Below are positions 12,056 to 42,990 of a stretch of DNA of 64,000 nucleotides, one piece after another. How positions within the stretch are numbered: position 1 is the stretch's first letter; each line of letters begins with the position of its first letter. Below the pieces are notes generated by a model. The model was given only the letters and a program-made list of their open reading frames with translations, ran no database searches and was not told where the DNA came from. Source of the DNA: Lachnospiraceae bacterium UBA7182 (GTDB lineage Bacteria; Bacillota; Clostridia; Lachnospirales; Lachnospiraceae). The position numbers were made by a program, and so were the translations under genes. The DNA lies in contig DKVI01000071.1 of assembly GCA_002491115.1 (NCBI GenBank), forward strand, positions 4,618-68,617. Reading direction: 5' to 3'.

Positions 12056-12763
12056 ATGGAAAAGCTGCTTTTACTGGAAGATGACATCGGTCTGGTGGAC
12101 GGACTTATGTATACGCTTGAAAAAGAAGGATATCTGCTCCGGGTAGCCCGGACGGTAAAAGAAGCAAGGGAACAGCTTAAGAACGGCGAGCCGTATGCGC
12201 TTCTTATTCTGGACGTGTCTTTGCCGGACGGGTCCGGTTTTGACGTCTGCAAAGAAGTCCGCGCGTCAGGGAACCAGACGCCGATCCTTTTCCTTACGGC
12301 GGCAGATGAAGAAACTCATGTGATTCGCGGACTGGATCTGGGAGGTGACGATTATTTATCCAAACCTTTCCGGCTAGGAGAACTGTGTTCCAGAATCCGG
12401 GCGCTGATCAGGAGGAGCCATATCAGGAACCTGTCGGAAGAAACGGATGTTTTAAGTTCCGGACCTTTGAAAATCTGCCTGACAGAAAGCAAAGTCTTAA
12501 AAGACGGCGTATCTTTGGCACTGACAGCCATGGAATACCGCCTGCTGTGTCTGCTGATCAGACATCAGGGACAGATTCTTACAAGAGAACAAATTTTAGA
12601 TGCTTTGTGGGACGGAAGCGGGAACTATGTGGACGATAATACGCTGTCTGTCCATATCCGAAGGCTCAGAGAAAAGATTGAAGAAAATCCTTCTCATCCT
12701 GTCCGGCTTTTGACGGTCAGGGGATTTGGCTACCAGTGGAAAGGAGAGGGGCGTACACCATGA
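12056..12763 (+). CDS. OmpR-family response regulator
   Basis: Receiver domain (LLLEDD, LLILDVSLPDGSG, KPF) plus a winged-helix C-terminus (LTAMEYRLLCLL...VRGFGYQW). Confidence 0.9.
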   Translation: MEKLLLLEDDIGLVDGLMYTLEKEGYLLRVARTVKEAREQLKNGEPYALLILDVSLPDGSGFDVCKEVRASGNQTPILFLTAADEETHVIRGLDLGGDDYLSKPFRLGELCSRIRALIRRSHIRNLSEETDVLSSGPLKICLTESKVLKDGVSLALTAMEYRLLCLLIRHQGQILTREQILDALWDGSGNYVDDNTLSVHIRRLREKIEENPSHPVRLLTVRGFGYQWKGEGRTP

Positions 12764-13989
12764 GTTTTTTACAGGAAAAACAGAACCGGCAGTATCTGAC
12801 ATTTCTTGCATGTCTTGCCACAGGCATGCTTATTTTTACGCTGTTTTCCGGATATGCAAAGCTGACATGCCTGAACCGGATTCTCTTTCGCAGGGAGCAG
12901 CAATTAGCCAGCGCCCTTTTGGAAGAGGGAATTTCGGAAAAAACACTGGCGTCTGCCTATGCCAGAGAAACGATAACGAAAGACGGTGTTCTGTTCCTGG
13001 AAAAGATCGGGCACAGTCAGGAAAGCCCTGTCCGGTATTTTTCTTATATCCGAAATCATGCGTCTGCAATCCTGCTGCCGGATTTTGCCGGCGTGCTTCT
13101 TTGGTCCGTCCTGCTTTTGGCAGGCGCTTTTTTATCCATGCGGCGGCGGGAGGCTCTGTATCTGAAAGCCGCCTGTATGGTGGAACGGTACGCGGAAGGG
13201 GATTTTTCTGTCCACCTTCCCTGGAACCAGTCGGGAACGCTTTATCGCCTGTTTTCCTCTATTGATCAGCTTGCCAAAGCATTGCAGGCCAAGTGCGAGA
13301 CAGAGCATGCGTCCGCGGAATTTTTAAAGAATACCCTGTCCGATATTTCCCATCAGTTAAAAACACCGCTGGCCGCGCTGCATATGTACGCGGAGATCAT
13401 TGCTGCCGAACCGGACAATCGGGATGTTGTCATAAGATTTTCAGAAAAATCCATGCAGTCTTTGATCCGCATGGAAGAACTGGTACAGAATCTTCTGAAA
13501 ATCACGCGCCTGGACGCCGGGAGCATCTGTTTTGAAAAAAGGGAACTGCCTGTGGAGGAAGTGGTACAAAGGGCAGTGGAGGATCTGCGGCTAAGAGCGG
13601 TCCGGGAGAAAAAGCAGATCGTGTTTAAGGGGGACGTAAAAGACAAAATTTTCTGCGATCCTGCCTGGACAGGCGAAGCCATCGGAAACCTTGTAAAAAA
13701 CGCCCTGGACCATACGTCGGAAGGCGGAAAGATCTGTATCTGCTGGAAACATTCTTCTGTGGCGCTGAAACTGTCTGTTTCGGACGACGGGTGCGGGATC
13801 GCGCCGGAAGATATCCATCATGTGTTTAAGCGGTTTTACAGAAGCCGCCGTTCCAGTGACCGACAGGGCGCAGGGCTTGGACTTTCTCTGGCTAAAAGCA
13901 TTGTAGAAGGACAGGGCGGCAGGATCTGTGTTTTCAGCGAGCCGGGGCAGGGAACGGTGTTTACGCTTTTCTTTCTTACGGAATCGTAA
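12760..13989 (+). CDS. sensor histidine kinase
   Basis: ATGA overlap with the response-regulator stop. Two TM segments. H-box SDISHQLKTPL, N-box NLVKNALDHT, G-boxes DDGCGI and GAGLGLSL. Confidence 0.9.
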   Translation: MSFLQEKQNRQYLTFLACLATGMLIFTLFSGYAKLTCLNRILFRREQQLASALLEEGISEKTLASAYARETITKDGVLFLEKIGHSQESPVRYFSYIRNHASAILLPDFAGVLLWSVLLLAGAFLSMRRREALYLKAACMVERYAEGDFSVHLPWNQSGTLYRLFSSIDQLAKALQAKCETEHASAEFLKNTLSDISHQLKTPLAALHMYAEIIAAEPDNRDVVIRFSEKSMQSLIRMEELVQNLLKITRLDAGSICFEKRELPVEEVVQRAVEDLRLRAVREKKQIVFKGDVKDKIFCDPAWTGEAIGNLVKNALDHTSEGGKICICWKHSSVALKLSVSDDGCGIAPEDIHHVFKRFYRSRRSSDRQGAGLGLSLAKSIVEGQGGRICVFSEPGQGTVFTLFFLTES

Positions 13990-14036
13990 GCCGGATTTCA
14001 CCGAAATGTAAGGTCTGTCTGGTAGGATAAAGATGT

Positions 14037-14052
14037 TCTTGAAAATACAAGA
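14037..14052 (+). promoter_or_regulatory. inverted repeat TCTTG-N6-CAAGA upstream of the ABC genes (candidate response-regulator operator)
   Basis: TCTTGAAAATACAAGA is a perfect 5-bp inverted repeat with a 6-nt spacer, about 25 nt upstream of the RBS of 14076. Confidence 0.3.
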
Positions 14053-14075
14053 CTACAAGGAAAGAGGTAGGAATC

Positions 14076-14759
14076 ATGCAGATTTTACAGGTAGAAAAAC
14101 TTTGCAAAGTCTACGGAACCGGCGATACGGCGGTAAAGGCTTTGCAGGATGTGACATTCTCCATGGAAAAGGGAGAGTTTGCGGCGGTGGTCGGGGAGTC
14201 AGGTTCAGGGAAAAGTACGCTTCTGAACTGTATCGGGGCTTTGGATACGCCCACATCCGGCAGGATTTGTCTGGACGGAACGGATCTGTTCGGAATGAAG
14301 GAGAATCAGAGAACTTTGTTTCGGCGCAGAAATGTGGGATTTATTTTTCAGTCCTTCCATCTGATTCAGGAACTCGACGTGGAACAGAATATGATTTTTC
14401 CGCTTTTACTGGACTACCAGAAGCCAAGGCGGGAGAAAGTGGAAGAATTACTGGAACTTTTAGGCCTGCAGGACAGGCGGCATCATCTCCCCTGTCAGTT
14501 GTCAGGCGGGCAGCAGCAAAGAGCGGCCATCGGGCGGGCGCTGATGACCCGTCCCATGCTGGTGCTGGCAGACGAACCCACAGGCAATTTAGATTCTAAA
14601 AGCAGCGAGGATGTGATGGAACTTTTAACAAAAGCATCCCGCCGTTACCAGCAGACAGTCCTGATGATCACCCACAATATGCAGTTGACTGCTTTTGCGG
14701 ACCGGGTGTTTCAGGTAAAGGACGGAAGACTTACAGATATGGGAGGGATGAAGGCGTGA
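14076..14759 (+). CDS. ABC transporter ATP-binding protein (MacB/BceA-like)
   Basis: Walker A GESGSGKST, Q-loop, signature LSGGQQQR, Walker B LVLADEPTGNLD. Confidence 0.9.
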   Translation: MQILQVEKLCKVYGTGDTAVKALQDVTFSMEKGEFAAVVGESGSGKSTLLNCIGALDTPTSGRICLDGTDLFGMKENQRTLFRRRNVGFIFQSFHLIQELDVEQNMIFPLLLDYQKPRREKVEELLELLGLQDRRHHLPCQLSGGQQQRAAIGRALMTRPMLVLADEPTGNLDSKSSEDVMELLTKASRRYQQTVLMITHNMQLTAFADRVFQVKDGRLTDMGGMKA

Positions 14760-17083
14760 GAAATTATCTGGATCTGATTCCGATTCAGTCGTCCATTCAC
14801 AGAAAACAAAGCCGCATGACCCGGATTTGCATCTTCTTGTCGGTATTTCTTGTGATGACGATCTTTGGGATGGCGGATATGGAGATGGTAAGCCAGAAAG
14901 TACAGGCTGTAAGAAGCGACGGAAACTGGCATGTTGTCTTTAAAAATATAAACGGCCAGCAGGCGGCTCTGATTGACGCCAGGCCGGAAGTAAAAATAAC
15001 CGGATGGTATGACGTGATCAATTACGGGCTGGACAGCCACTGGCAGGTCGAAGGACAGGAGACGGTCGTCTGCGGGATGAATCAGTCTTTAATGCAGGTG
15101 CTTCCGGTGGCGCTTAAAGAAGGGAATTTTCCCGCATCCGGTGAGGATGAGGTGGTGTGTACCACAAGCGTCCAGGACCGTCTGGGGATTCAACCGGGAG
15201 ATACCGTCCGGATCGAAGCGCCGGATGGACGTCTGCTTTCATTTTCGGTCAGTGGATTTGCAGAGACGACTTCCATGCTGACGGAGAAAGACGCTTTTGG
15301 TATTTTCACGGACCTGGATACGTTTCATGCATATTTTACAGACGGAATACCCACGGAAAAAGATAATGTCCTTTATGTGCAGTTTGCTCCTTTTTGCAAT
15401 ATCCAAAGGGCGCTTTCTACTATAAAAAGGCAGTTCGGACTTTCAGATGAACAGGTGGCAGAGAACGCCAAACTGTTAGGCCTGATGTTTCAAAGCAGTG
15501 ATCCGTATCTGCTTCAGATCTATCTGGTGGCGCTGGTTCTTGCCGTACTGGTGGCTGTAGCCGGAATCCTGATGATCACGGGCAGTCTAAACAGCAGTGT
15601 AGCCCAGAGGACCGAATTTTTCGGACTGATGCGCTGTCTGGGCGCCACTCCCAGGCAGGTGATGCGTTTTGTGAGAAAAGAAGCGCTGGGGTGGTGTAAG
15701 ACCGCCATACCAGCGGCGCTTCTTGCAGGAACGGCGGTTATATGGGGACTTTGTCAGCTTCTTCGCTGTTTAAGCCCGAACCTGTTTGAGGGAATGCCTC
15801 TTTTTGGAATCAGTTGGATCGGGATCGCGGCAGGGGTGGTCTTAGGGCTTGTGACTGTTCTTACGGCGGCCCACGCGCCTGCCAAAAGAGCCTCCAAAGT
15901 GACGCCTTTAAGCGCTGTTTCAGGCAATGCCGGAACTACTTATGGCGTAAAATCTTCCGCAAATACCAGATGGTTTCCCATAGAGCTGTCCCTTGGATGC
16001 CATCATGCCACAGGAAGCCTTAAGAATCTTTTTTTAATGTCCGGTTCTTTTGCTTTTGGGATTCTCCTTTTTATGTCTTTTTCGACGCTTCATGATTTTA
16101 TGAACCATGCGTTTACGCCGCTTCGGCCCTGGTCGCCGGATCTGTCTGTCATAAGTCCTGACAATTCCTGCTCTGTCCCGGAAGACCTGGCGGAGCGTAT
16201 CGCCGGACAATCGTCGGTCAGGCGCGTCTATGGAAGGAGATTTGCCTACGACATGGACGCCGGCGTGGGGGAACGGACGATCAAGATTCAGTTAATTTCG
16301 TATGAAAGTCATCAGCTTGTGTGGGCAGAGGATGATCTGTATTCCGGCACAGTGGACGAGATACCCAGGGGGGAGTCCGTGCTTACCGTGTTAAAAGAAG
16401 AAGATAAGATACAAACAGGAGAGCAGATTCGTATCAGGACAGAAACAGGATGGGAATCCTTGCCTGTATCCGGTGTGCTTACCACCTGTCCTTTTGACCA
16501 GGACCCGGATGTCTTTACGGTGATCTGTTCGGAAGATTTGTTTAAAAGGCTGACAGGAGAAACCGATTATACAATCCTGGATATTCAGGTAAAACGGGGA
16601 ACGTCGGATCAGGAAGTAGAAAATATCCGCCGGATGGCGGGAGAAAATATCCTGTTTTCTGACAAACGTCAGGGAAATGAGGAAGTGATGGGCGCATATT
16701 ATGCGTTTCTTTTATTCCTGTATGGGTTTCTTGTGGTAATCCTGATGATCTGTGCTTTTCATATTATAAACAGTATGTCCATGAGCGCATCCGCCCGGAT
16801 GGGGCAGTATCAGAATATGTATGCCGTCGGCATGGATCAAAGACAGTTGATCCGGATGGTGGCGGCGGAGGCATTCTTTTATACGTTTCTGGGGATTCTT
16901 GTGGGCGGAGCTGCCGGATGCTGGTTTCACAGGCTTTTATACCAGTATCTTGTGACTTCCCGCTGGGGAGACGCCTGGCAGGTGCCGGCAGGGCCGTTTC
17001 TTGCAGCAGCTGCGACGGTGCTTCTGGCTTCTGCGCTGTCGATCCTGGGGCCCGGAAAAAGGATGGCTAAGATTGTCAGATAA
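14756..17083 (+). CDS. FtsX-family ABC permease (BceB-like, two FtsX domains)
   Basis: 775 aa. GTGA overlap with the ATPase gene. Multiple TM helices with large extracytoplasmic loops. The gene order RR-HK-ATPase-permease is typical of peptide-antibiotic sensing/detoxification modules. Confidence 0.8.
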   Translation: MRNYLDLIPIQSSIHRKQSRMTRICIFLSVFLVMTIFGMADMEMVSQKVQAVRSDGNWHVVFKNINGQQAALIDARPEVKITGWYDVINYGLDSHWQVEGQETVVCGMNQSLMQVLPVALKEGNFPASGEDEVVCTTSVQDRLGIQPGDTVRIEAPDGRLLSFSVSGFAETTSMLTEKDAFGIFTDLDTFHAYFTDGIPTEKDNVLYVQFAPFCNIQRALSTIKRQFGLSDEQVAENAKLLGLMFQSSDPYLLQIYLVALVLAVLVAVAGILMITGSLNSSVAQRTEFFGLMRCLGATPRQVMRFVRKEALGWCKTAIPAALLAGTAVIWGLCQLLRCLSPNLFEGMPLFGISWIGIAAGVVLGLVTVLTAAHAPAKRASKVTPLSAVSGNAGTTYGVKSSANTRWFPIELSLGCHHATGSLKNLFLMSGSFAFGILLFMSFSTLHDFMNHAFTPLRPWSPDLSVISPDNSCSVPEDLAERIAGQSSVRRVYGRRFAYDMDAGVGERTIKIQLISYESHQLVWAEDDLYSGTVDEIPRGESVLTVLKEEDKIQTGEQIRIRTETGWESLPVSGVLTTCPFDQDPDVFTVICSEDLFKRLTGETDYTILDIQVKRGTSDQEVENIRRMAGENILFSDKRQGNEEVMGAYYAFLLFLYGFLVVILMICAFHIINSMSMSASARMGQYQNMYAVGMDQRQLIRMVAAEAFFYTFLGILVGGAAGCWFHRLLYQYLVTSRWGDAWQVPAGPFLAAAATVLLASALSILGPGKRMAKIVR

Positions 17084-17167: not shown

Positions 17168-18628
17168 GTGAAACGAGAAAAATTTGGTTCCCGTCTCGGG
17201 TTTATACTGGTATCCGCCGGATGTGCCATCGGGATCGGAAATGTCTGGAAGTTCCCCTACATATGCGGGGAATACGGCGGAGCCGCTTTTATATTGATCT
17301 ATCTGGCTTTTCTTTTGATTCTCGGCATACCTGTGCTGGTATGCGAGTTTGCCATCGGCAGAGGCAGTAAAAAGAGTGTGGCTTTAAGCTTTGAAGAACT
17401 TTCGCCCCCGGGTACATCCTGGCCGAAACTCAAATATATCGGAATATTCGGCTGTTACCTTTTGATGATGTTCTATACCATGGTCGGCGGATGGATGATG
17501 TATTATTGCTACAGAAGCCTGACAGGAGCGTTTCGCGGGGCTTCTCCCGAGCGCATTGCGGATGCCTTTACAGGGATGCTTTCAGACCTGCCCACGATGG
17601 CGTTCTGGACGGTCCTGATCTGCATCCTGGGCTTTGCAGTCTGTATGCTGGGATTAAAATCCGGCGTGGAGCGAATCACGAAAGTCATGATGGCGGCGCT
17701 TCTTCTGATCATGGTGGTGCTGGCGCTGCACTCGGTATTTTTAGACGGCGCAGGCGCGGGCATCCGCTTTTACCTGATCCCGGATTTTCAGAAAATGGTG
17801 GAGAGCGGCATCGGAAATGTGGTGTTTGCCGCGTTAAGCCAGGCATTTTTTACGCTGTCTCTGGGTGTCGGAGCCATGCTGATCTTCGGAAGTTATCTGG
17901 ACAGAGCCCACAGTCTGACAGGAGAGGCCGTCAGTATTACAGCGCTGGATACCTTCGTGGCATTGACGGCAGGATTTATCATCATCCCTGCCTGTTTTGC
18001 CTACGGGATCGAACCCGGAGCAGGGCCCAGCCTTGTATTTATTACCCTGCCGAATATCTTCTCACAGATGCCGGGGGGCTCTTTATGGAGCGCGCTTTTC
18101 TTCCTGTTTCTGACCTTTGCGGCGCTTTCCACGATCATTGCGGTATTTGAAAATATACTTGCGTTTGATATGGACCTGTTCGGATGGTCGAGAAAGAAAA
18201 GCGTACTGGTCAGCGCGGTGCTGATCATCGTACTTAGTATGCCGGCTGTGTTAGGATATAATGTATGGTCTGCGATTCAGCCGTTAGGAGAGGGCAGTAC
18301 CATCATGGACTTGGAAGATTTTATTGTCTCCAACAATCTGCTTCCTCTGGGAAGCCTGGGGTATGTATTGTTTTGCACCAGTAAAAACGGATGGGGCTGG
18401 ACAAACTTTATAGCAGAAGCCAACGCCGGAACGGGCCGGTCTTTCCCCACAGGTTTAAAAAATTATATGCTGTACGGGATTCCGCTTATCATTATCGTGA
18501 TCTATCTGAAAGGATACTATGATAAGTTCCAGGGGGAAAGCCTGCTGGTACTCGGATGCTGGATGGCGGTGGCCGTAGTGCTTCTGGGATTTGTATTTTA
18601 CTGCGCGACGGCGAAAAAAAGAGTATAA
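17168..18628 (+). CDS. sodium-dependent neurotransmitter:sodium symporter (NSS/SNF) family transporter
   Basis: GFILVSAGCAIGIGNVWKFPY N-terminal signature. About 11-12 TM helices. GTG start preceded by GGGAG. Confidence 0.85.
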   Translation: MKREKFGSRLGFILVSAGCAIGIGNVWKFPYICGEYGGAAFILIYLAFLLILGIPVLVCEFAIGRGSKKSVALSFEELSPPGTSWPKLKYIGIFGCYLLMMFYTMVGGWMMYYCYRSLTGAFRGASPERIADAFTGMLSDLPTMAFWTVLICILGFAVCMLGLKSGVERITKVMMAALLLIMVVLALHSVFLDGAGAGIRFYLIPDFQKMVESGIGNVVFAALSQAFFTLSLGVGAMLIFGSYLDRAHSLTGEAVSITALDTFVALTAGFIIIPACFAYGIEPGAGPSLVFITLPNIFSQMPGGSLWSALFFLFLTFAALSTIIAVFENILAFDMDLFGWSRKKSVLVSAVLIIVLSMPAVLGYNVWSAIQPLGEGSTIMDLEDFIVSNNLLPLGSLGYVLFCTSKNGWGWTNFIAEANAGTGRSFPTGLKNYMLYGIPLIIIVIYLKGYYDKFQGESLLVLGCWMAVAVVLLGFVFYCATAKKRV

Positions 18629-18631
18629 AAA

Positions 18632-18680
18632 ACAGGGTGCCTGTTCCTGATACGGACCGGCATCCTGTTTTTATTTTTCA
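18632..18680 (+). terminator. rho-independent terminator
   Basis: ACAGGGTGCC pairs with GGCATCCTGT (one G-U pair), followed by TTTTTATTTTT. Confidence 0.7.
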
Positions 18681-18814
18681 GATAAATACAAACTCAAAAT
18701 TCCAATTTTCATAATGACTTCCTTCCTCGTGATATCTCTGTACCACTTTATCACCATACAGTAAAATTATATAGGAAAACCGTTCGGATGGCAAGAAATT
18801 TATTGTCGAATCAT

Positions 18815-18893
18815 CGAACGAATTTTCGCTTTTTGTATTGACAAACGAATGTTCGATTGATATAATCAGATTATGTGAAAGAACGGATGTTCG
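18815..18893 (+). promoter_or_regulatory. SOS-regulated promoter: TTGACA-17-TATAAT with three LexA (Cheo-type) boxes
   Basis: Three boxes: CGAACGAATTTTCG 18815-18828, CAAACGAATGTTCG 18842-18855 and AGAACGGATGTTCG 18880-18893. Each has one mismatch to CGAAC-N4-GTTCG. TTGACA lies at 18838-18843 and TATAAT at 18861-18866, so box 2 sits inside the spacer. Confidence 0.75.
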
Positions 18894-18916
18894 CCATTAT
18901 AAAGGAGTGAGTGGAT

Positions 18917-19303
18917 ATGTATGCAGAAGGAACCATGAGCAGGGAAGAGTTCAGGAAGGCAAGGCGGGAGCAGGTGATGTCGGAGCAAAGAGCCAGAAGA
19001 CGTCGGATACTCTTATTTTGTGTGACGATACTGCTGGTATTCGGAGTCGGCGTATGCTTCGGAACGCTCCTTGCCAGAGCGGATGAGACGGCAGAAGATT
19101 CGGCGTATAAGTATTACACAAAGATAGAAGTGCAGAAGGGAGATACCCTGTGGGAGATCGCGGACCGTTATATGGACCGTGAACATTATGAAGGCCGAAG
19201 GGAATATATCATAGAAGTCATGAATATTAATCATATGACAACCGACCGCCTGACGGTAGGGAAAAAGCTTATTGTTCCTTATTATTCGGCAGAAGTAAAA
19301 TAA
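18917..19303 (+). CDS. YneA-like SOS cell-division inhibitor candidate (single TM + LysM domain)
   Basis: Basic N-terminus, TM helix ILLFCVTILLVFGVGVCFGTLLA, and a C-terminal LysM domain (YTKIEVQKGDTLWEIADRY...LTVGKKLIVPY). GGAG lies 9 nt upstream of the ATG at 18917 (in-frame GTG at 18911). LexA boxes lie upstream. Confidence 0.7.
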   Translation: MYAEGTMSREEFRKARREQVMSEQRARRRRILLFCVTILLVFGVGVCFGTLLARADETAEDSAYKYYTKIEVQKGDTLWEIADRYMDREHYEGRREYIIEVMNINHMTTDRLTVGKKLIVPYYSAEVK

Positions 19304-19502
19304 TCGTGAAAAAACAGGCCTCTTTTTTAAGATTTTATAAAGAATGCTTTAAGATTATTTGTCGTTTATTGTAGAACAGGGCGAAATATGTTAAAGTGAG
19401 AACAACCGAACGCTTGAACAGCGCACATATGTAAGTGCAGATGCAGATACATCTCCCCGTGTGCCGGGAAAGCTGCAGCAGAACTTAAATTAGGAGGTCA
19501 CT

Positions 19503-20627
19503 ATGAAGAATAAACTATATTACATACTTGTGGTCCTGTACTTCCTGATGTTTGGTTTTATCCTGTACATCAATGGGGTATTCACAGGGAAGATAGGGTC
19601 ACTGGATAATTTGCTGATTAATGTGGGATTTTTGGTGATTATAGGTATTTTATTTCTTATATCGTTTACCGGTTTTGCCAGATTAAACCGGATGACAGGC
19701 GCGCTTATGATCGCGGAGGAAGCCATGAGGGATCAGTACCAGGAAACGCGTCAGAACCTGTGGCAGGAATACAGGAAGAAAAAAGACCTGTTTCCTGACG
19801 CCCTGCTAAATGAGCAGTTTGCGAAATATCAGAAGCGCATACAGGCGCATACCAACACAAAGGGCCAGGTGACGGAAGCCTGCCCCATAGAAGAATATAT
19901 CAATGAAGATCTGTTGGACCGGGCAGGGAAGACATACTTTAACTCCGCTGTATCCGGCACGCTGACCGGACTTGGAATCTTAGGTACATTCCTCGGGTTG
20001 ACCATGGGAATGAGTTCCTTTTCTGGAAATGATATATTTACCATATCGGATAATATCGCTCCGCTTCTGGAGGGCATGAAGGTGGCGTTTCATACATCGG
20101 TTTACGGAATCTTCTTTTCTTTGGTATTTACCTTTGTATACCGCAGCCTTATGTCGGATGCTTATGAAAAGCTTCAGAGCTTCCTCTCTTCGTTTCATGA
20201 GTATGCGGCTCCGACAGTCAGCAATATGGATGAGAATACAGGCGCGATGCTGATCTACCAGGCCAACATGGCTAATTCTTTGAAAAATATCATGGAACTT
20301 ATGCGCGGGAATGCCATGGAGCAGACAAAATCCATGGACCGGATCGTGCAGCGTTTTATGGACCGGATGTCCGATTCCATGAGCGCCGATTTTGATAAGA
20401 TCGGCAAATCTTTAAAGGAGGCGTGTGAGATACAGGTGGCCTATGCCAGGAATTTCCAGCGCCTGGAGGAAAGTACCAGGCTGCTGCTGGAATCCAGCCG
20501 TATGATGAACGATACTATGAATCTGGCGTTAGAAAGACAGCGGGAAGCAGAAGAGAAGATGTCCAAAACCTGTGACGATTTAAGCAATGAGCTGTATACG
20601 TTTCAGAAGATGAGGGATTTGCTATGA
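19503..20627 (+). CDS. MotA/ExbB/TolQ-family proton-channel protein with a long helical C-terminal tail
   Basis: Helix arrangement of 2+2 TM. Channel blocks TGLGILGTFLGLTMG and LLEGMKVAFHTSVYGIFFSLVF. Residues ~225-374 are charged and helical. AGGAGG RBS. Confidence 0.75.
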   Translation: MKNKLYYILVVLYFLMFGFILYINGVFTGKIGSLDNLLINVGFLVIIGILFLISFTGFARLNRMTGALMIAEEAMRDQYQETRQNLWQEYRKKKDLFPDALLNEQFAKYQKRIQAHTNTKGQVTEACPIEEYINEDLLDRAGKTYFNSAVSGTLTGLGILGTFLGLTMGMSSFSGNDIFTISDNIAPLLEGMKVAFHTSVYGIFFSLVFTFVYRSLMSDAYEKLQSFLSSFHEYAAPTVSNMDENTGAMLIYQANMANSLKNIMELMRGNAMEQTKSMDRIVQRFMDRMSDSMSADFDKIGKSLKEACEIQVAYARNFQRLEESTRLLLESSRMMNDTMNLALERQREAEEKMSKTCDDLSNELYTFQKMRDLL

Positions 20628-21508
20628 AAAGTCAGAGAAGAGAAAGAGCCGCATTTGCGGAACCGGGCTACTGGCAGTCCTATTCGGATATGATGGCGGC
20701 ACTGCTTTTAATCTTTATCCTGATCATCGCCGTCACCCTTGCCATCTACAAACAAAAGAGAACGGATCTGGAAAAGGCGCAGCTTCAGCTTAATTCCACC
20801 CGGACAGAGCTGGAAGCGTCCAGAGCGGATCTGGAAACTTCCGAGGAGGAGCTTAGAAATTCTCTGAAAGAACTGGAAGAAGCTTACGCCCAGGCAACCA
20901 TGACGCAGGAAGAACTGGATGCCGCTTATCTGGAGATTGACGAAGCAAGGGCTGAGCTGAATGCTACAAAAAGCGAGCTTAAAGATATTGTCGGCATACG
21001 GACAGATATCATCGGGGAACTACAGACCCGTTTTAGTAATTCGTCTATGAAAGTAGATCCCCAGACCGGCTCCATTACTTTTTCTTCGGATGTGCTGTTC
21101 CGATACAACAGCGCAACACTTACTTCGGAGAGTCAGGATACTTTAAAAGAAATTATCCCCATGTATTTAGGCGTGCTTCTCCAGGATAATTTCCGCCCAT
21201 ATATTGCCGAGATCATCATCGAAGGCCATACAGATACGGACGGCGGATATCAAAGTAATATGACTTTATCCTACAACCGGGCCAATTCTGTGGCGAAATT
21301 CTGTGTGGACAGTAAAAACGGGCTGTCTCAGGCGCAGATCGAATTGCTGCAAAGCCTGATGACGGTAAACGGGCGTTCTTTCAGTAACCCGATCTATAAA
21401 GCCGGCTCCGAAGAAGTGGATATGGCCGCTTCCAGGCGTGTGGAGATCAAATTCCGCCTGAAAGAGGACGAGATGATCAAAAAGATCACGGAGGTGCTGG
21501 AGCATTAA
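20624..21508 (+). CDS. MotB/OmpA-family protein (plug-TM with conserved Asp, coiled coil, peptidoglycan-binding domain)
   Basis: ATGA overlap with the upstream gene. YWQSYSDMMAALLLIFILII segment, an ~80-aa heptad-rich stretch, and an OmpA-like C-terminus IIEGHTDTDG ... LSYNRANSV ... SRRVEIKF. Confidence 0.75.
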   Translation: MKSQRRERAAFAEPGYWQSYSDMMAALLLIFILIIAVTLAIYKQKRTDLEKAQLQLNSTRTELEASRADLETSEEELRNSLKELEEAYAQATMTQEELDAAYLEIDEARAELNATKSELKDIVGIRTDIIGELQTRFSNSSMKVDPQTGSITFSSDVLFRYNSATLTSESQDTLKEIIPMYLGVLLQDNFRPYIAEIIIEGHTDTDGGYQSNMTLSYNRANSVAKFCVDSKNGLSQAQIELLQSLMTVNGRSFSNPIYKAGSEEVDMAASRRVEIKFRLKEDEMIKKITEVLEH

Positions 21509-23313
21509 GAGAGATATCCGCGGAACCGATTCAGGCAGGCAAACAGTTCCTGTATCCGGGGTTTGGCCAGACCGCAGGGAATGTAAGAACTGCAGAACGG
21601 TTCCCATCCTTTTTTCTCCATCATATCGGATAATGTCTGAACAATCTGACGGACTGTGCGTTTTCCGTCCATAAGCTGTTCCAGCGCATACCGCAGAAGG
21701 TATGCCAGGGCAGTGGTCTGTTCGGAATCGGCAAGCTGTTCCACATACCTTAAATCTACGGTTTCTTTATCTACGGAGAAGGAATCGCGTCCCATGGTTT
21801 TTATCTTCATATGTTCATGGCGGTTGTCACTTTCGATCCGCCTTCCTGTGCGGTAATCCCGTCTGCCGCGTTCGCTGCGGTGCCAGGGAGGCAGTGTACG
21901 CTCATAAGAAGGCACGGCAAATCCGGGCGCCTGGATTCGGGGGGCAGTATGCTCTTTGCACAGTTCTTTTACATGTTCTGTAATATCGACCGGACGATAA
22001 CAGTCCATCTGGAGGATCTTATCCGCAATATAGAAGAAAGCGCCGGAACTTCCTGCCACAAGGATCGTCGAGATCCCTGCCTGTTCATACAGATCTCTGG
22101 CGCGTTCCAGAAACGGTGTGATGGGTTCCTTTTCCCGGCTGATCACCTGCTGCATAAAATCGTCCCGCAGCATAAAGTTGGTAGCGGAAGTATCCTCATC
22201 GATCAGGAACAGACGGGAACCAGACTCCATATTTTCGATCACGCCGGCTGCCTGGGAAGTACTTCCGCTGGCATCCGGGGTTGAAAAAGATGCCGTATCT
22301 TTTTTATTGGGCAGATCGTTGATGAACAGGGATATATCCACATTTCGAATAGAGCGCCCGTCTTCGGCCCGCAGTTTGACCGCCGTATCGTCGGTGATGA
22401 CAAATTCCCGCCCGTCCCCGGCAATATGGTTATAAACGCCGTTTTGCAGAGCTTCTAAAAGGGTGGATTTTCCATGATAGCCGCCGCCCACAATCAGGGT
22501 AATGCCCTGGGGGATTGCCATTCCGGTGATTTTTCCTTTATGGGGCAGCGTAAAAGTACGCTCCATTGAGGCAGGTGAAGTAAAAAGGACACTGTCTTTT
22601 AAAGGAAGATCCGATACGCCGCTTTTTCTGGGAAGAATCGAGCCGTTAGCCACAAAGGCGGACAGTTTTTCTTCTGTCAGAATGTTTCTGAGTGCCTCCT
22701 GATCTTCTGCCAGGAATATGGCAGCTTCCACTTTTTTTGCATCCAGCTTTCGGTAATAAAAGCTGTTTTCCACGCAGCGGGGAAGGAAATCAAAGAGAAT
22801 TTTCTCCAATTCTCCCGCATTGATGGTCCGTCCAAGGGCAGGAAAACCCACATGGAAACGGGCGACGATTTTATTTTCCGAAATCTGGCAGGCGCTTCGG
22901 TCCAGCACTTCCTGACGGCATCGGGTGATGGATAAAAGGCCGCTTTTCCCTGAGCCTTTTGCTTTAAAATTGTAATCTTCAAACTGGGAGGCGAACTGTC
23001 TGGTCAGAAAGTCCTGCAAAGCAATGCGGGAGCAGTCTTTTTCATAGTACGCTGTCGGAAACCCGGCCGCTTTGTGGGGGATTTCCACATGAAGACTGGA
23101 GGGAGAGGCAAAAGGATCACCCTGGACATGATCGATGGACAGGGTAAAATTCTGATATTGATAGACTCCTGCCAGAGATTTATAAGCAGGATAGCTTTTA
23201 TGATCAATGGAACGCAGCATGGTGCGCAGGTCATTGGATGATTTCATAACTGGAATAATTCTCCTTTCGGGTGTGTATTGGTACGGGTATAGTATAACAA
23301 CATTTTTTTCCAT
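21505..23313 (-). CDS. ABC-class ATPase family protein (PF09818-like, function unknown)
   Basis: LIVGGGYHGKSTLLEALQ Walker A and LFLIDEDTSATNFM Walker B. The N-terminal SIDHVQGDPFASPS block is typical of the 'predicted ATPase of the ABC class' family. Confidence 0.7.
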   Translation of the reverse strand: MEKNVVILYPYQYTPERRIIPVMKSSNDLRTMLRSIDHKSYPAYKSLAGVYQYQNFTLSIDHVQGDPFASPSSLHVEIPHKAAGFPTAYYEKDCSRIALQDFLTRQFASQFEDYNFKAKGSGKSGLLSITRCRQEVLDRSACQISENKIVARFHVGFPALGRTINAGELEKILFDFLPRCVENSFYYRKLDAKKVEAAIFLAEDQEALRNILTEEKLSAFVANGSILPRKSGVSDLPLKDSVLFTSPASMERTFTLPHKGKITGMAIPQGITLIVGGGYHGKSTLLEALQNGVYNHIAGDGREFVITDDTAVKLRAEDGRSIRNVDISLFINDLPNKKDTASFSTPDASGSTSQAAGVIENMESGSRLFLIDEDTSATNFMLRDDFMQQVISREKEPITPFLERARDLYEQAGISTILVAGSSGAFFYIADKILQMDCYRPVDITEHVKELCKEHTAPRIQAPGFAVPSYERTLPPWHRSERGRRDYRTGRRIESDNRHEHMKIKTMGRDSFSVDKETVDLRYVEQLADSEQTTALAYLLRYALEQLMDGKRTVRQIVQTLSDMMEKKGWEPFCSSYIPCGLAKPRIQELFACLNRFRGYLS

Positions 23314-30421: not shown

Positions 30422-31099
30422 ATGAAATACGAAATAAAAGGCGGCGTTTTTCCGGTGGTGGTATGCGAACTGGAAAGCGGAGAGAAAATGATCACCGAAA
30501 AAGGCTCCATGGTATGGATGACTCCGAACATGGAGATGCAGACAGTGGGCGGCGGAGCAGGGAAAATGTTTTCCAAAGTCCTTTCCGGCGAAAGTATGTT
30601 CCAGAATATTTATACGGCAAAAGGCGCGGGAATGATCGCATTCGGTTCCAGTTTTCCGGGGAAGATCCTGCCGCTTACTGTAGCGCCCGGACAGGAATAC
30701 ATCATGCAGAAAAGTGCGTTTCTGGCTTCTGAAGAAGGAGTCAAATTATCGGTTCATTTTAATAAAAAAGCCGGCGCAGGTTTCTTCGGTGGAGAAGGTT
30801 TCATCATGCAGAAATTATCCGGCTCCGGAACAGTCTTTGCCGAAGTGGACGGCGATCTGGTAGAATATGAACTGGGATCAGGACAACAGATGATCGTGGA
30901 CACCGGAAATGTAATGGGATTTGAATCCAGCGTGTCCATCGACATCCAGCAGGTCAAAGGTCTGAAGAACAAACTGCTGGGCGGAGAAGGATTTTTCAAT
31001 ACTGTTCTCACAGGCCCGGGGAAGATATGGCTCCAGACAATGCCGATTTCCAGCGTAGCCATGTCCATCCGCCCGTATATTCCGTCGGGAAATGCGTAA
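30422..31099 (+). CDS. TIGR00266/AIM24 family protein
   Basis: MKYEIKGGVFPVVVCELESGEKMITEKGSMVWM and the GEGFIMQKLSGSG / GGEGFF blocks are characteristic of the family. Confidence 0.75.
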   Translation: MKYEIKGGVFPVVVCELESGEKMITEKGSMVWMTPNMEMQTVGGGAGKMFSKVLSGESMFQNIYTAKGAGMIAFGSSFPGKILPLTVAPGQEYIMQKSAFLASEEGVKLSVHFNKKAGAGFFGGEGFIMQKLSGSGTVFAEVDGDLVEYELGSGQQMIVDTGNVMGFESSVSIDIQQVKGLKNKLLGGEGFFNTVLTGPGKIWLQTMPISSVAMSIRPYIPSGNA

Positions 31100-31160
31100 A
31101 AAAACGGATTGCAATATATGGATAAAATGAAAGGCGGCGCATCAGCAGGGAGGAGCCACT

Positions 31161-32470
31161 ATGGGAATGTTTTTAAACAGTATTGTTCCTTCGGAAAATT
31201 ATAAAGAGATAGCCAGAACCAGGTTTTTTGTTGATAAAACATCACTGATTGATGAAATCATTTATTCAATGGAAAATGATGGTCGTAAATTTCTCTGTAT
31301 TACCAGGCCGCGCCGTTTTGGCAAAAGTATTATGGCCAATATGCTGAGCGCCTTCTTTGGAAAAAACGGCGATGGGAGAGAGGTTTTTGGTAAACTTAAG
31401 ATTTCAAAATCAGAAAATTTTGAAAAATATTTAAATAATTTTGATGTTATTTACATTGACGGCAGCGCGGTTCCCAGAGACTGCAAAAATTATAAAGAGT
31501 ACATTCATTTTATTCAAAACGGAATGAATCAGGATCTGGCAGATGCCTATCCGGAATATGGCATTATTCCCGACAGCGCTGTCTGGGAATCTATGACTAA
31601 AATATTTCAGCAGACAAGGCAAAAATTTCTTTTTATCATAGACGAGTGGGATGCTGTCTTTCATATGCCGTTTATTTCAGATAAAGAAAAACAGGAATAT
31701 CTCCTTTTTTTGAAAACACTGCTAAAAGACAAGGCATATATAAAACTTGTCTATATGACAGGCGTTCTTCCCATCGCCAAATATTCCAGCGGCTCAGAAC
31801 TTAATATGTTCCAGGAATATGATATGGTGACAAGAGTAAAATACGGAGAATATTTTGGATTCCTGGAATCAGAAGTAGATACTCTTTTTGATATTTATCA
31901 GAGAACTACGGATAACCCGGAGATCGAAAGAGCAGATCTGGATACCTGGTATAATGGGTATTATACAAAAAAGGGTACGAGATTGTATAATCCGTGTTCT
32001 GTTGTATATGCACTGGAAGATAATGAACTGGCAAACTATTGGAACAGTTCCGGACCTTATGATGAAATTTTTTACTATATACGCAATAATATTGATGCTG
32101 TACGCGATGACCTGGCTTTAATGATTTCGGGTGAACGGATTGCGAAATAGAATTATCGGCTGTAGTTAATCTGGTGTATTTGTCCGCAAGGGATCACTAC
32201 CGCGTAGAACGTGAGGATAAAGCAGGAGAAGGATATGTGGATTTTATATTTTATCCGGAGCAGACAGATGCAACCGCTTTAATCCTGGAATTAAAAGTAG
32301 ACGGAACACCAGAAGAGGCGATTCAGCAGATCGTAAATAAAAAGTATGCGTTACGTTTCAAAGGCAAATTGGGCGAAAAACCCCGGTTCACAGGAAAAAT
32401 ACTGGCCGCAGGAATCAGTTACAGCAAAAAAACAAAAGAACATCATTGCAAAGTGATAACGCTTTCATAA
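31161..32470 (+). pseudogene. disrupted AAA-ATPase_like / PD-(D/E)xK (PDDEXK_9) fusion gene
   Basis: 31161..32150 encodes the ATPase part ([26 protein letters not shown]). 32174..32470 is in another frame, has no RBS and starts with GTG; it encodes the nuclease end (GEGYVDFIFYPE...LILELKV). About 100 aa are missing relative to the intact paralog 35506..37185. Confidence 0.7.
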
Positions 32471-32547
32471 AAAATTTTGGCAACAACAAATCAGATGCAA
32501 GAACCCCGGACAGTATTCCGAGGTTCTTGTCAAGTGTGTAAATGCAT

Positions 32548-32585
32548 ACAACGCGTCGTAAAACTGCCATTTTGCGACGCGTTGT
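32548..32585 (+). other. long perfect hairpin / inverted repeat immediately upstream of the recombinase gene
   Basis: ACAACGCGTCG (32548-32558) and CGACGCGTTGT (32575-32585) are perfect 11-bp arms. AAAA/TTTT pairs extend the stem inward. A second hairpin CAAGAACC...GGTTCTTG lies at 32498-32529. Confidence 0.8.
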
Positions 32586-32622
32586 AGAGCGCTCTTATTG
32601 CACAGAATAAGGAGGTTTTCCT

Positions 32623-34431: not shown

Positions 34432-34447
34432 TGTTTATTCCCCTTTC

Positions 34448-35497: not shown

Positions 35498-35505
35498 ATT
35501 CCCCC

Positions 35506-37185: not shown

Positions 37186-37249
37186 TTGTCCTTCCGCCTT
37201 TCCTGCTTTTTCAGTTTTGTTTCACACTGCTTTGCCTTTTACTATTATA

Positions 37250-38782: not shown

Positions 38783-38785
38783 CGG

Positions 38786-39703: not shown

Positions 39704-39724
39704 CTCATTTTCATCCCTTCTTAT

Positions 39725-39900
39725 TTATAGTTCCGCATCTTTTCCTCCCAGTATCCGTCGCCCAGACCCGTCGTCGTCTGCCTGGCGGCATCCGCCCACG
39801 AGTCTGCATACTGCTCGAAAAAGATGCTGTTATAGTTCCGCATCTTTTCCTCCCGGTATCCGTCACCCAGACCCGTCGCCGTCTGCCTGGCGGCATCCGC
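39725..39900. repeat. two 71-bp direct repeats (68/71 identical, 105-bp period) just upstream of the C39-like gene
   Basis: Copy 1 at 39725-39795, copy 2 at 39830-39900. Three substitutions. Each copy carries GGGAGGAAAAGATG on the minus strand. Confidence 0.9.
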
Positions 39901-42073: not shown

Positions 42074-42109
42074 AAAACGGCCTCCTGCCTTTCGATTCAC
42101 CGAATTTTT

Positions 42110-42952: not shown

Positions 42953-42990
42953 CTATATTTTACTAATGGTATCACAAAATTCCCGGCTTT

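What the first reader, a model, noticed from the sequence alone, without database searches (positions are those of the whole stretch)
19503..21508. Orphan MotA/MotB-type stator pair with coiled-coil extensions and no recognisable client machinery (Zorya-core-like?)
Seen:
- Two translationally coupled genes share an ATGA overlap at 20624-20627.
- Gene 1 (374 aa) has 2+2 TM helices. The second pair carries MotA/ExbB/TolQ channel blocks (TGLGILGTFLGLTMG; LLEGMKVAFHTSVYGIFFSLVF). A ~150-aa charged helical tail follows.
- Gene 2 (294 aa) opens with a MotB/ExbD-like plug-TM bearing the invariant Asp (YWQSYSDMMAALLLIFILII).
- It continues with ~80 residues of heptad-like coiled coil (LEKAQLQLNSTRTELEASRADLETSEEELRNSLKELEEAY...).
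- It ends in an OmpA/MotB peptidoglycan-binding domain (IIEGHTDTDG...SYNRANSV...RRVEIKF).

Established: such 5:2 ion-driven motors power flagella, Ton/Tol, gliding and the Zorya anti-phage system, in which a long ZorA tail relays the signal.

Inference: nothing in these 64 kb supplies a client. There are no fli/flg/che, tonB, tolA/pal or zorC/D/E-like genes. The pair is therefore either a minimal Zorya-like envelope sensor whose effector is unlinked or unknown, or an undescribed envelope motor of a Gram-positive. The long coiled-coil spacer in the B subunit is atypical.

Context: an SOS-controlled LysM gene lies directly upstream. A convergent PF09818-type ABC-class ATPase has a stop that overlaps gene 2 by 4 nt.
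Basis: partly seen in the sequence, partly recalled or inferred. Interest (0 to 1): 0.78.

Follow-up and report, generated by a model that had tools for sequence, protein, structure and literature searches.

The report
Stand-alone short-tailed ZorAB-like membrane motor
These two genes encode a relative of the ZorAB membrane motor from the Zorya anti-phage system, but with a short tail, a long cell-wall stalk and no effector genes; the pair is inherited like a core housekeeping gene across gut Lachnospiraceae, which suggests an undescribed non-flagellar and possibly non-defence role.

Summary
Two translationally coupled genes (19503-20627 and 20624-21508, ATGA overlap) encode a MotA/ExbB-type channel protein and a protein with a TM-Asp helix, a coiled coil and an OmpA-like domain.

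Profile, sequence and fold searches all place them with ZorA and ZorB of Zorya, not with flagellar MotAB or ExbBD/TolQR.

The pair fails the other defining Zorya features:
- No zorC/D/E/F/G-like gene, or any other conserved third gene, occurs in 81 related loci.
- The A tail is only about 130-150 aa and nearly fixed in length.
- In B, the peptidoglycan-binding domain sits on an unbroken leucine-zipper stalk. Its length across the family is 69-111 residues and always ≡ 6 mod 7 (70 of 70).

At least 555 species carry the pair, almost all Lachnospiraceae. It lies in housekeeping contexts and diverges in step with NusA and IF2. It is absent from the plasmid and phage collections and has its own conserved promoter.

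Best reading: a proton-driven, wall-anchored 5:2 rotary transducer of the ZorAB type. It is kept as a core gene pair and acts on an unlinked partner. A minimal anti-phage system is the main rival; a flagellar stator is unlikely.

The parts
19329..19356 (+). Three phased AAGAWT direct repeats (19329, 19340, 19351; 11-bp spacing), a candidate regulator or UP-like site for the pair's own promoter
   Evidence: The repeat pair lies exactly 29 nt upstream of the -35-like TTG in 18 of 81 loci, including clades at 53-55% identity with different upstream genes.
19369..19397 (+). Sigma-A-type promoter of the pair: TTGTAG (-35-like, 19369-19374), 17-nt spacer, extended -10 TGtTAAAGT (19389-19397)
   Evidence: Conserved block in the alignment of upstream regions. 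The pattern TTGnnn-N12-16-TGnTAnAnT occurs upstream of A in 40 of 81 loci. Inferred, not mapped experimentally.
19492..19497 (+). Ribosome-binding site AGGAGG of gene 1
   Evidence: Sequence. A Shine-Dalgarno-like site lies within 20 nt of the start in 70 of 81 loci.
19503..20627 (+). Gene 1: ZorA-like A subunit (374 aa; PF28082 ZorA-like_t1 + MotA_ExbB)
19944..20147 (+). Channel helices TM3/TM4 of A (residues 148-215) with invariant Thr162 and Ser199, equivalent to the EcZorA ion-filter residues Thr147 and Ser184
   Evidence: Alignment to 8qyy/8qyk, invariant columns in A1, and residue roles from PMC11946911. This is the most conserved segment (mean top-residue frequency 0.88).
20148..20624 (+). 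Cytoplasmic linker and short helical tail of A (residues 216-374), with conserved tip motif ELYTFxKMRDLL
   Evidence: AF2 helices 244-269, 278-292 and 294-373. Periodicity of 3.5 residues in 294-374, and only two main tail-length classes in the family.
20624..21508 (+). Gene 2: ZorB-like B subunit (294 aa)
   Evidence: PADLOC ZorB1 4.9e-67 over the full length. Best PDB sequence match is EcZorB 8qyd_F at 7.6e-19. Top Foldseek matches are ZorB chains.
20669..20749 (+). TM helix of B (residues 16-42) with the invariant ion-coupling Asp22
   Evidence: YWQSYSDMMAALLLIF aligns with EcZorB FWISYADLMTAMMVLF, where Asp26 is the coupling residue. Asp22 is invariant in A2.
20759..20986 (+). Leucine-zipper stalk of B (residues 46-121; 76 residues, about 11 nm)
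   Evidence: One heptad position is hydrophobic in 11 of 11 heptads. Family-wide stalk lengths are 69, 76, 83, 90, 97, 104 or 111 residues in 70 of 70 loci. All indels are 7-residue blocks.
21056..21463 (+). OmpA-like peptidoglycan-binding domain of B (residues ~145-280) with Asn212, Leu215 and Arg219, equivalent to EcZorB Asn152, Leu155 and Arg159
   Evidence: Pfam OmpA 3.4e-13, alignment to EcZorB, invariant columns, AF2 alpha/beta domain.

Best explanation
The two genes encode a ZorAB-type ion-driven motor. By homology it is an A5B2 complex.

**Proposed mechanism**
- Two B subunits sit in the centre of an A pentamer.
- Protons pass via B Asp22 and the A Thr162/Ser199 filter and drive A to rotate around B.
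- B is anchored to the thick wall of this single-membrane bacterium. Its OmpA-like domain sits on a rigid dimeric leucine-zipper stalk of about 11 nm here and 10-16 nm across the family.
- The five A C-termini form a short cytoplasmic helical bundle (about 130-150 residues) with a conserved tip. This bundle passes rotation, or a wall-engagement signal, to a partner encoded elsewhere.

**How it differs from Zorya.** The pair is not a mobile defence cassette. It is a vertically inherited, housekeeping-grade gene pair of Lachnospiraceae with its own regulated sigma-A promoter. It most likely works as an envelope or wall-state transducer.

**Shown here:** homology, conserved residues, architecture, distribution, and the lack of linked genes.

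**Inferred:** 5:2 stoichiometry, proton coupling, rotation, the existence of an unlinked partner, and a non-defence role.
For: **ZorAB homology**
- PADLOC ZorB1 4.9e-67 and ZorA 2e-19.
- Precomputed PF28082 ZorA-like_t1.
- Foldseek: A matches ZorA chains at 3.5e-7 to 2e-4, against TolQ/ExbB at about 1e-2 and PomA at 4e-2. B matches ZorB chains best.
- PDB sequence search: the A profile hits only ZorA chains. B is best matched by EcZorB at 7.6e-19.

**Functional residues.** The coupling, filter and PG-binding residues are all invariant.

**Architecture**
- Stalk length is heptad-quantised in 70 of 70 loci, and the zipper register is unbroken.
- Tail length is nearly fixed and the tip is conserved.

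**No linked partner.** A occurs in 81 of 81 loci and B in 75 of 81. The next most frequent neighbour family occurs in 15 of 81.

**Core-like inheritance**
- At least 555 species representatives carry it.
- Neighbours are housekeeping genes: rimP-nusA-infB, argG, clpB, atp.
- A and B divergence tracks NusA and IF2 (Spearman 0.72-0.92). B is as conserved as they are, at 86% mean identity each.
- No plasmid or phage copies were found.

**Own promoter.** A conserved promoter and upstream repeats precede the pair.
Against: - No function has been tested.
- The nearest relatives outside the family are long-tailed PF28082 proteins in defence-like contexts, so a defence origin or role cannot be excluded.
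- Stoichiometry and tail bundling are inferred. The monomer AF2 models have low pLDDT in the tail and stalk.
- 'Core' status rests on synteny and rate comparison. No full presence/absence census of Lachnospiraceae genomes was possible.
- No partner has been identified.
Confidence: 0.55

Rival explanations
1. The pair is a minimal Zorya-type anti-phage system. ZorAB-like sensing of envelope damage during phage entry is coupled to an effector encoded elsewhere, or to no effector at all (for example, ion leak leading to abortive infection).
For: - The closest characterised homologues are ZorA and ZorB.
- Long-tailed members of the same Pfam family in Lachnospiraceae sit beside defence-type genes: a ZorC-like EH-signature protein (2e-5), GajB/UvrD-like helicases, a caspase-like protein, R-M genes and Pkinase-VWA-PP2C triads.
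Against: - No effector-like gene is linked in 81 loci.
- All tail truncations abolish defence in EcZorA (PMC11946911), and the tail here is only about 130-150 aa.
- The pair lies in housekeeping neighbourhoods, is as conserved as NusA and IF2, and diverges with them. It is absent from plasmids and phages.
- Zorya is reported as under-represented in single-membrane bacteria.
- No depolarisation was seen for Zorya (PMC11890865).
Confidence: 0.25
2. The pair is a flagellar or chemotaxis-linked stator, that is, a divergent MotAB/MotPS.
For: - It belongs to the MotA_ExbB + OmpA/MotB superfamily.
- In one clade (55-57% identity; about 7 of 81 loci) the pair lies directly downstream of a cheR-cheB-cheY-cheA-cheW-MCP-hybrid kinase cluster or next to an MCP gene.
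Against: - Fold and sequence are closest to ZorAB. No MotA or PomA chain reaches E<0.1 against the A profile.
- There is no MotA_N domain, and MotB_plug is below the cut-off.
- A genuine Lachnospiraceae motA/motB pair (264 and 253 aa) is a different family and sits beside a Zor-like pair in L148.
- A long rigid B stalk and an A tail are not stator features.
- The che adjacency is confined to one clade, so it is a single event.
- A standardised protologue lists no flagellar genes for the carrier Hominiventricola aquisgranensis, while listing them for Lachnospira species (argument from silence).
Confidence: 0.07
3. The pair is a decaying remnant of a Zorya system that lost its effectors and part of its tail and no longer has a function.
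For: The tail is short and effector genes are absent, compared with canonical Zorya.
Against: - Both reading frames are intact in 75 of 81 loci. The other loci lack B through contig ends or my ORF calling.
- All mechanistic residues are invariant.
- B is 62-86% identical across genera and as conserved as IF2 and NusA.
- Stalk indels are strictly heptad-quantised.
- The promoter is conserved.
Confidence: 0.03

Closest known systems
ZorAB core of type I Zorya (E. coli NCTC9026 EcZorAB, PDB 8QYD; Shewanella ANA-3, PDB 8VVN)
   Same: - It is the best fold and sequence match for both subunits.
- The full-size A motor shares the TGxGIxGTF and AFxxS channel motifs, with Thr and Ser filter residues.
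- B has the TM Asp and an OmpA-like PG-binding domain with the N-x2-L-x3-R motif.
- The genes are adjacent in the order A then B.
- A has a helical C-terminal tail.
   Different: - There is no zorC or zorD.
- The A tail is about 130-150 aa, against about 500 aa (about 70 nm) in EcZorA.
- A has a predicted extra N-terminal hydrophobic helix (2+2, against 3 TM in EcZorA).
- B carries a 69-111-residue leucine-zipper stalk, whereas the EcZorB PG-binding domain is fused to the TM helix without a linker.
- The host is a single-membrane bacterium.
- Inheritance is core-like and vertical, rather than in defence islands.
- NCBIfam ZorA/ZorB scores are far below their cut-offs.
Long-tailed PF28082 'ZorA-like_t1'/OmpA pairs of Lachnospiraceae (e.g. 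Butyrivibrio sp. AE3004, L147; L148; L149)
   Same: - Same Pfam family and the same host family.
- About 30-35% identity over the motor, with shared motifs (CDIEDYIN, TGLGILGTF, GIKVAFHTS).
- Same A then B gene order.
   Different: - Tails are 250-650 aa and of variable length, and the tips differ.
- They are linked to Pkinase-VWA-PP2C, Sel1/TPR, ZorC-like, UvrD/GajB-like or caspase-like genes, often beside R-M genes.
- These pairs are themselves uncharacterised.
Type II Zorya ZorAB (Sulfuricurvum kujiense, PDB 8VVI)
   Same: - The A protein is of similar overall length (378 aa).
- Its ZorB is the top Foldseek match for B (2e-10).
   Different: - The type II A has a reduced motor, with the tail starting at residue 100 (about 280 aa of tail).
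- It is always linked to the zorE HNH nickase.
- Its B has no long stalk.
Flagellar stators MotAB/PomAB/MotPS
   Same: - Same superfamily, with the B Asp and an OmpA-like wall anchor.
- Translationally coupled A/B genes.
- Present in Gram-positives.
   Different: - A lacks the FliG-interacting cytoplasmic domain and MotA_N.
- B has no confident plug.
- It shares only 27% identity over 60 aa with a Lachnospiraceae MotA.
- It has a tail and a stalk, which stators lack.

Membership tests
MotA/ExbB/TolQ-MotB/ExbD/TolR superfamily of 5:2 ion-driven motors | The A subunit carries the MotA_ExbB channel domain | tested here: met
   PF01618, E 1e-7, 32.2 bits, above the cut-off of 22.9.
MotA/ExbB/TolQ-MotB/ExbD/TolR superfamily of 5:2 ion-driven motors | The B subunit has a single TM helix with the universally conserved Asp | tested here: met
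   Asp22 aligns with EcZorB Asp26 and is invariant in 30 sequences.
MotA/ExbB/TolQ-MotB/ExbD/TolR superfamily of 5:2 ion-driven motors | A5B2 stoichiometry and ion-driven rotation | not testable with these tools
   Only monomer AF2 models were possible.
Pfam PF28082 ZorA-like_t1 | Hit to the family model | tested here: met
   A precomputed hit is recorded for the window protein itself and for all listed homologues. The model is not in the local Pfam copy, so the score was not seen.
Zorya anti-phage system (types I-III) | ZorA-type A subunit and ZorB-type B subunit | tested here: inconclusive
   Homology is clear: PADLOC ZorB1 223.8 bits and ZorA 67.8 bits, and the top Foldseek and PDB matches are ZorA/ZorB. 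All curated NCBIfam cut-offs are missed (ZorA_2 67 against 100; ZorA1 50 against 750; ZorB1 92 against 400).
Zorya anti-phage system (types I-III) | Operon-linked soluble effector genes (zorC+zorD, zorE, or zorF+zorG) | tested here: not met
   No such genes occur in the window. No conserved third gene occurs in 81 loci.
Zorya anti-phage system (types I-III) | Long ZorA cytoplasmic tail, which is required for defence | tested here: not met
   The tail is about 130-150 aa with a nearly fixed length. The EcZorA tail spans residues 223-729, and every truncation is inactive.
Zorya anti-phage system (types I-III) | ZorB PG-binding domain fused directly to the TM helix | tested here: not met
   A coiled-coil stalk of 69-111 residues is inserted, whereas EcZorB is described as 'fused without a linker'.
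Zorya anti-phage system (types I-III) | Defence-island or mobile, patchy genomic behaviour | tested here: not met
   The contexts are housekeeping. Divergence tracks NusA and IF2. No plasmid or phage copies were found. No full presence/absence census was done.
Zorya anti-phage system (types I-III) | Confers phage resistance | not testable with these tools
   This needs an experiment.
Flagellar stator MotAB/PomAB/MotPS | MotA-type cytoplasmic domain (MotA_N, FliG interface), with closest similarity to MotA/PomA | tested here: not met
   There is no MotA_N hit. PomA ranks 27th in Foldseek at E 4e-2. No MotA chain appears in the PDB profile search. Identity to a Lachnospiraceae MotA is 27% over 60 aa.
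Flagellar stator MotAB/PomAB/MotPS | MotB plug helix | tested here: inconclusive
   PF13677 scores 19.3 bits, below the cut-off of 24.
Flagellar stator MotAB/PomAB/MotPS | Membership of a flagellar/chemotaxis regulon, as the only motAB in a flagellated genome | tested here: inconclusive
   A che cluster is adjacent in one clade only and none occurs in the window. Whole genomes could not be scanned.
ExbBD-TonB / TolQR-TolA | Linked TonB or TolA transducer, and a B subunit without an OmpA domain | tested here: not met
   No tonB or tolA occurs in the window or the loci. B has an OmpA domain. TolQ and ExbB are weaker fold matches.

The most novel reading that the evidence does not exclude
A Zorya-type 5:2 rotary motor has been domesticated into a core, chromosomally fixed component of the cell envelope in Lachnospiraceae. 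It is anchored to the wall by a leucine-zipper 'ruler' whose length changes only in whole heptads. It continuously reports or exploits wall state through a short rotating cytoplasmic tail that acts on a housekeeping partner. If so, it would be the first non-flagellar, non-defence 5:2 motor function in single-membrane bacteria.
Probability: 0.4. Interest if true: 0.8.

Novelty: new variant of a known kind. Interest (0 to 1): 0.64.

Why it matters
Ion-driven 5:2 motors are known to power flagella, Ton/Tol, gliding/T9SS and Zorya defence. All the non-flagellar cases are in double-membrane bacteria, and Zorya is reported as under-represented in single-membrane ones.

This ZorAB-type pair is different in three ways:
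- It is widespread, found in at least 555 species of a dominant gut family.
- It has no effector genes.
- It evolves like a core gene.

This suggests one of two things. ZorAB-like motors may have uses beyond immunity, or immunity modules can be domesticated.

The strictly heptad-quantised stalk is a natural length series of 10-16 nm. It could be used to test how the distance between the membrane and the wall gates activation of this motor class, which is the central open point of the Zorya model.

The conserved tail tip and the promoter repeats give direct handles for finding the partner and the signal.

Tried and rejected
**Searches for a linked partner or regulator**
- Conserved third gene: neighbours in 81 loci were clustered. 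Nothing exceeded 15 of 81.
- SOS control of the pair: LexA boxes lie within 350 nt upstream of A in only 2 of 81 loci. The window's boxes belong to the LysM gene.
- Riboswitch or leader RNA: no Rfam hit at E≤1 in 18500-21700.
- A second copy of the AAGAWT repeat in the window, to find co-regulated genes: only one weak hit at 63877, within chance expectation.
- Intrinsic terminator between the LysM gene and gene 1: none detected, so read-through cannot be excluded.
- PF09818 ATPase as partner: it is convergent, clade-restricted (15 of 81) and has no Zor-like PADLOC hit.

**Searches for mobility or flagellar links**
- Mobile copies: no tblastn hit in plasmids or phages.
- Same-locus canonical motAB in carriers: none in about 1.3 Mb of loci or in the window.
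- Motility of named carriers from protologues: only an argument from silence.

**Context of distant relatives**
- The most divergent short-tailed members (P0246, P0248) sit on contigs too short to be informative. One has the order B then A.
- Canonical ZorC/ZorD next to long-tailed relatives: only a weak ZorC-like hit (2e-5) and UvrD-like rather than SNF2-type helicases.

**Literature.** No paper in the searchable library describes this clade.
Full report
**1. Observation**

- The ATGA start/stop overlap lies at 20624-20627, with a GAGGG ribosome-binding site 8 nt upstream.
- Gene 2's TAA stop shares TTAA (21505-21508) with the stop of a convergent 602-aa PF09818/ABC_N/MRB1590_C ATPase.
- Gene 1 passes the Pfam MotA_ExbB threshold (32.2 bits against 22.9).
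- Gene 2 passes OmpA (E 3.4e-13). Its MotB_plug hit is below threshold (19.3 bits against 24).

The window corresponds to contig DKTY01000077.1 of the metagenome-assembled genome GCA_002490395.1, on which the same protein is encoded. Close homologues are named Lachnospiraceae or Clostridiales.

Precomputed Pfam calls across the window show housekeeping and mobile genes. These include the atp operon, recG, lexA, sugar catabolism, a Bce-like two-component/ABC module, and integrase and PDDEXK genes. There are no fli/flg/che, tonB, tolA/pal or zorC/D/E-type genes.

**2. What the proteins are**

Every comparison points to ZorAB rather than to flagellar MotAB or ExbBD/TolQR.
- **PADLOC.** ZorB1 hits over the full length of gene 2 (E 4.9e-67, 224 bits). 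Nineteen ZorA models hit the first ~230 residues of gene 1 (best 2e-19).
- **Newer Pfam.** A family not in the local copy, PF28082 'ZorA-like_t1', is recorded for the window protein.
- **A fold.** The AF2 model of A (pLDDT 72.7) matches ZorA chains first: 8qyd, 8qyh, 8qyk, 8qyy and 8vvn at E 3.5e-7 to 2e-4. TolQ and ExbB follow at about 1e-2 and PomA at 4e-2.
- **A sequence.** A profile of the family hits only ZorA chains in the PDB (3e-15 to 2e-8).
- **B.** Its best PDB sequence match is EcZorB (7.6e-19), and its best fold matches are ZorB chains (2e-10 to 3e-9).
- **Curated cut-offs.** All NCBIfam Zor hits fall far below their cut-offs. This is homology, not equivalog membership.

The mechanistic residues described for EcZorAB (PMC11946911) are invariant in my alignments.

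| EcZorAB residue | Role | Residue here |
|---|---|---|
| ZorB Asp26 | ion coupling | B Asp22 |
| ZorA Thr147, Ser184 | ion filter | A Thr162, Ser199 |
| ZorB Asn152, Leu155, Arg159 | PG binding | B Asn212, Leu215, Arg219 |
| ZorB Tyr151 | PG binding | B Ser211 (changed) |

The simplest reading is a working, probably proton-coupled, 5:2 motor. Stoichiometry and rotation are inferred.

**3. How it departs from Zorya**

*(a) No effectors.* I fetched 80 loci from species-representative genomes, plus loci for individual homologues. I called ORFs and clustered the seven upstream and eight downstream neighbours.
- A is present in 81 of 81 loci and B in 75 of 81. The remaining loci lack B because of contig ends or my ORF calling.
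- The next most frequent families occur in 15 of 81 loci (the PF09818 ATPase) and 12 of 81 (the LysM gene, an SNF transporter, CopA).

*(b) Short, fixed tail.*
- From the channel motif to the tip motif, the family has essentially two lengths: 161 residues (29 loci) and 172-173 residues (42 loci). The difference is 7 + 4 = 11 residues.
- The distal helix has 3.5-residue periodicity, and the tip is conserved (ELYTFxQMRDLYEK).
- EcZorA's tail spans residues 223-729, and every truncation abolishes defence.
- The 378-aa type II ZorA is not comparable, because its tail starts at residue 100.

*(c) A stalk in B.*
- Here 76 residues separate the two. One heptad position reads L,L,L,L,L,L,A,L,I,L,L without interruption. 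The other core position holds A, S or T.
- Across the family the TM-to-domain distance is 69, 76, 83, 90, 97, 104 or 111 residues in 70 of 70 proteins, always ≡ 6 mod 7.
- The alignment shows that the indels are whole SxADLEA-type heptads.
- Further members from metagenomes have stalks of 83 or 90 residues.
- This is a register-constrained dimeric coiled coil of about 10-16 nm. Its length evolves freely, but only in whole heptads.

**4. Distribution and evolutionary behaviour**

Almost all are Lachnospiraceae, including Acetatifactor, Roseburia, Kineothrix, Hominiventricola and Alitiscatomonas.
- An exhaustive HMMER search shows a compact group of full-length ~368-392-aa proteins down to 40% identity. 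Beyond it come 450-900-aa ZorA-like proteins at 25-35% identity.

Neighbourhoods differ between clades but are conserved within them, and they are housekeeping.
- SNF-LysM-A-B, with the atp operon nearby, in the window's clade.
- polC or a che cluster, then A-B, then rimP-nusA-infB in another clade.
- argG, clpB or copA in the others.

Within groups of loci that share a housekeeping neighbour, pairwise identities of A and B track those of the neighbour.
- Spearman correlation is 0.78 (A) and 0.72 (B) with NusA, and 0.92 (A) and 0.83 (B) with IF2.
- B is exactly as conserved as NusA and IF2, at 86% mean identity each.

tblastn finds nothing in 72,556 plasmids or 50,697 phage genomes. This is the behaviour of a vertically inherited core gene, not of a defence cassette.

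**5. Regulation**

The pair has its own promoter.
- The upstream regions share TTGTAG, a 17-nt spacer and TGnTAnAnT (window 19369-19397).
- AAGAWT direct repeats in 11-bp phase precede it (window 19329, 19340, 19351).
- The repeats sit exactly 29 nt upstream of the -35-like TTG in 18 loci. These include clades at 53-55% identity with unrelated upstream genes.
- This looks like an activator site or an UP-like element. Its binding protein is unknown.

Other regulatory checks:
- No Rfam element lies in the leader.
- The three LexA-type boxes of the window (18815-18893) sit on the perfect promoter of the YneA-like LysM gene. Boxes near A occur in only 2 of 81 loci. SOS control is therefore a property of the neighbour, not of the pair.
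- Read-through in this clade cannot be excluded, because no terminator was detected.

**6. The wider family**

Long-tailed PF28082 pairs also occur in Lachnospiraceae, but in very different company.
- Pkinase-VWA-PP2C triads and Sel1/TPR proteins.
- A weak ZorC-like EH-signature protein (2e-5).
- GajB/UvrD-like helicases and a caspase-like protein.
- R-M genes.

They look like uncharacterised Zorya-like defence variants of single-membrane bacteria. One such locus (L148) carries a canonical motA/motB (264 and 253 aa; MotA_N, MotB_plug) immediately downstream. This shows what the real flagellar stator of this bacterial family looks like. It shares only 27% identity over 60 residues with gene 1.

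**7. Interpretation**

*Best explanation (confidence about 0.55 for the whole statement; about 0.9 for 'ZorAB-type motor').* The pair forms a wall-anchored, proton-driven A5B2 rotary transducer. Its short tail acts on an unlinked partner. It is maintained as a housekeeping envelope component of Lachnospiraceae.

The stalk plausibly adapts the Zorya principle to a single-membrane envelope. That principle is that the motor is gated by whether the B domain reaches peptidoglycan. This step is inference.

*Rivals:*
- **A minimal anti-phage system with a distant effector or none (0.25).** Homology and the defence-like long-tailed cousins favour it. Core-gene behaviour and the short tail count against it.
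- **A flagellar or che-linked stator (0.07).** Only the che adjacency in one clade favours it. All similarity data count against it.
- **A decaying remnant (0.03).** Strong purifying selection counts against it.

**8. Novelty**

Pfam has recently recognised the superfamily (PF28082). I found no paper describing this short-tailed, stalked, effector-less clade.
- The Zorya structural papers state that long tails occur in all subtypes and that Zorya is under-represented in single-membrane bacteria.
- A recent MotAB survey excluded ZorAB from its phylogenetic analyses.
- A study of Ton/Tol force transducers mentions ZorAB only in its introduction.

I class the pair as a new variant of a known kind.

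**9. Limits**
- The structure models are monomers, with low confidence in the tail and stalk.
- The protologue argument about motility is an argument from silence.
- The function remains untested.

Noticed in passing
window 18815-19303: This is a YneA-like SOS gene: a 128-130-aa TM + LysM protein (18911-19303). Its perfect TTGACA-17-TATAAT promoter (18838-18866) is overlapped by the only three LexA-type boxes in the 64 kb (18815, 18842, 18880). lexA itself lies at 51388-52005.
   Followed up: partly
L147 6411-19022; L148 6216-12527; L149 10001-13530; L099/L100: Long-tailed PF28082 ZorA-like/OmpA pairs in other Lachnospiraceae are flanked by Pkinase-VWA-PP2C triads, Sel1/TPR proteins, a weak ZorC-like EH-signature protein, GajB/UvrD-like helicases and a caspase-like protein, next to R-M genes. 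They may be undescribed Zorya-like defence subtypes of single-membrane bacteria.
   Followed up: partly
L148 12813-14371: A canonical flagellar motA (264 aa, MotA_N + MotA_ExbB) and motB (253 aa, MotB_plug + OmpA) lie directly downstream of a long-tailed Zor-like pair. The two motor families therefore coexist in one Lachnospiraceae genome.
   Followed up: yes
window 19329-19356: Three AAGAWT hexamers sit in 11-bp phase, at a fixed 29 nt upstream of the -35-like element. They are conserved in 18 of 81 loci across clades. The binding factor is unknown, and the window has no convincing second copy.
   Followed up: partly
window 12056-17083: An OmpR-type response regulator, a histidine kinase, an ABC ATPase and a 775-aa FtsX/MacB_PCD permease form a BceRS/BceAB-like module of the kind that senses cell-wall antibiotics. 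It lies 2.4 kb upstream of the pair. Parts of it recur in about 9 of 81 loci of the same clade only.
   Followed up: no
window 31000-44300: This stretch is rich in insertions: a tyrosine integrase (32623-33666), a PARG-like protein, three AAA-ATPase_like/PDDEXK_9 genes, ATPase_2/DUF234 and Peptidase_C39_2. It lies between the pair and the atp operon. In the 66%-identity relative L005 the pair is only about 8 kb from atp.
   Followed up: no
L007/L008 289-9821 and L028, L030, L032, L035: In one clade (55% identity) a cheR-cheB-cheY-cheA-cheW-MCP cluster plus a hybrid histidine kinase lies on the same strand directly upstream of the pair, which is followed by rimP-nusA-infB. Whether this is functional or historical is unresolved.
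   Followed up: partly
L151 318-2506: In a 40%-identity member of the short-tailed group the gene order is reversed: a 359-aa OmpA-domain B gene comes before the A gene.
   Followed up: no
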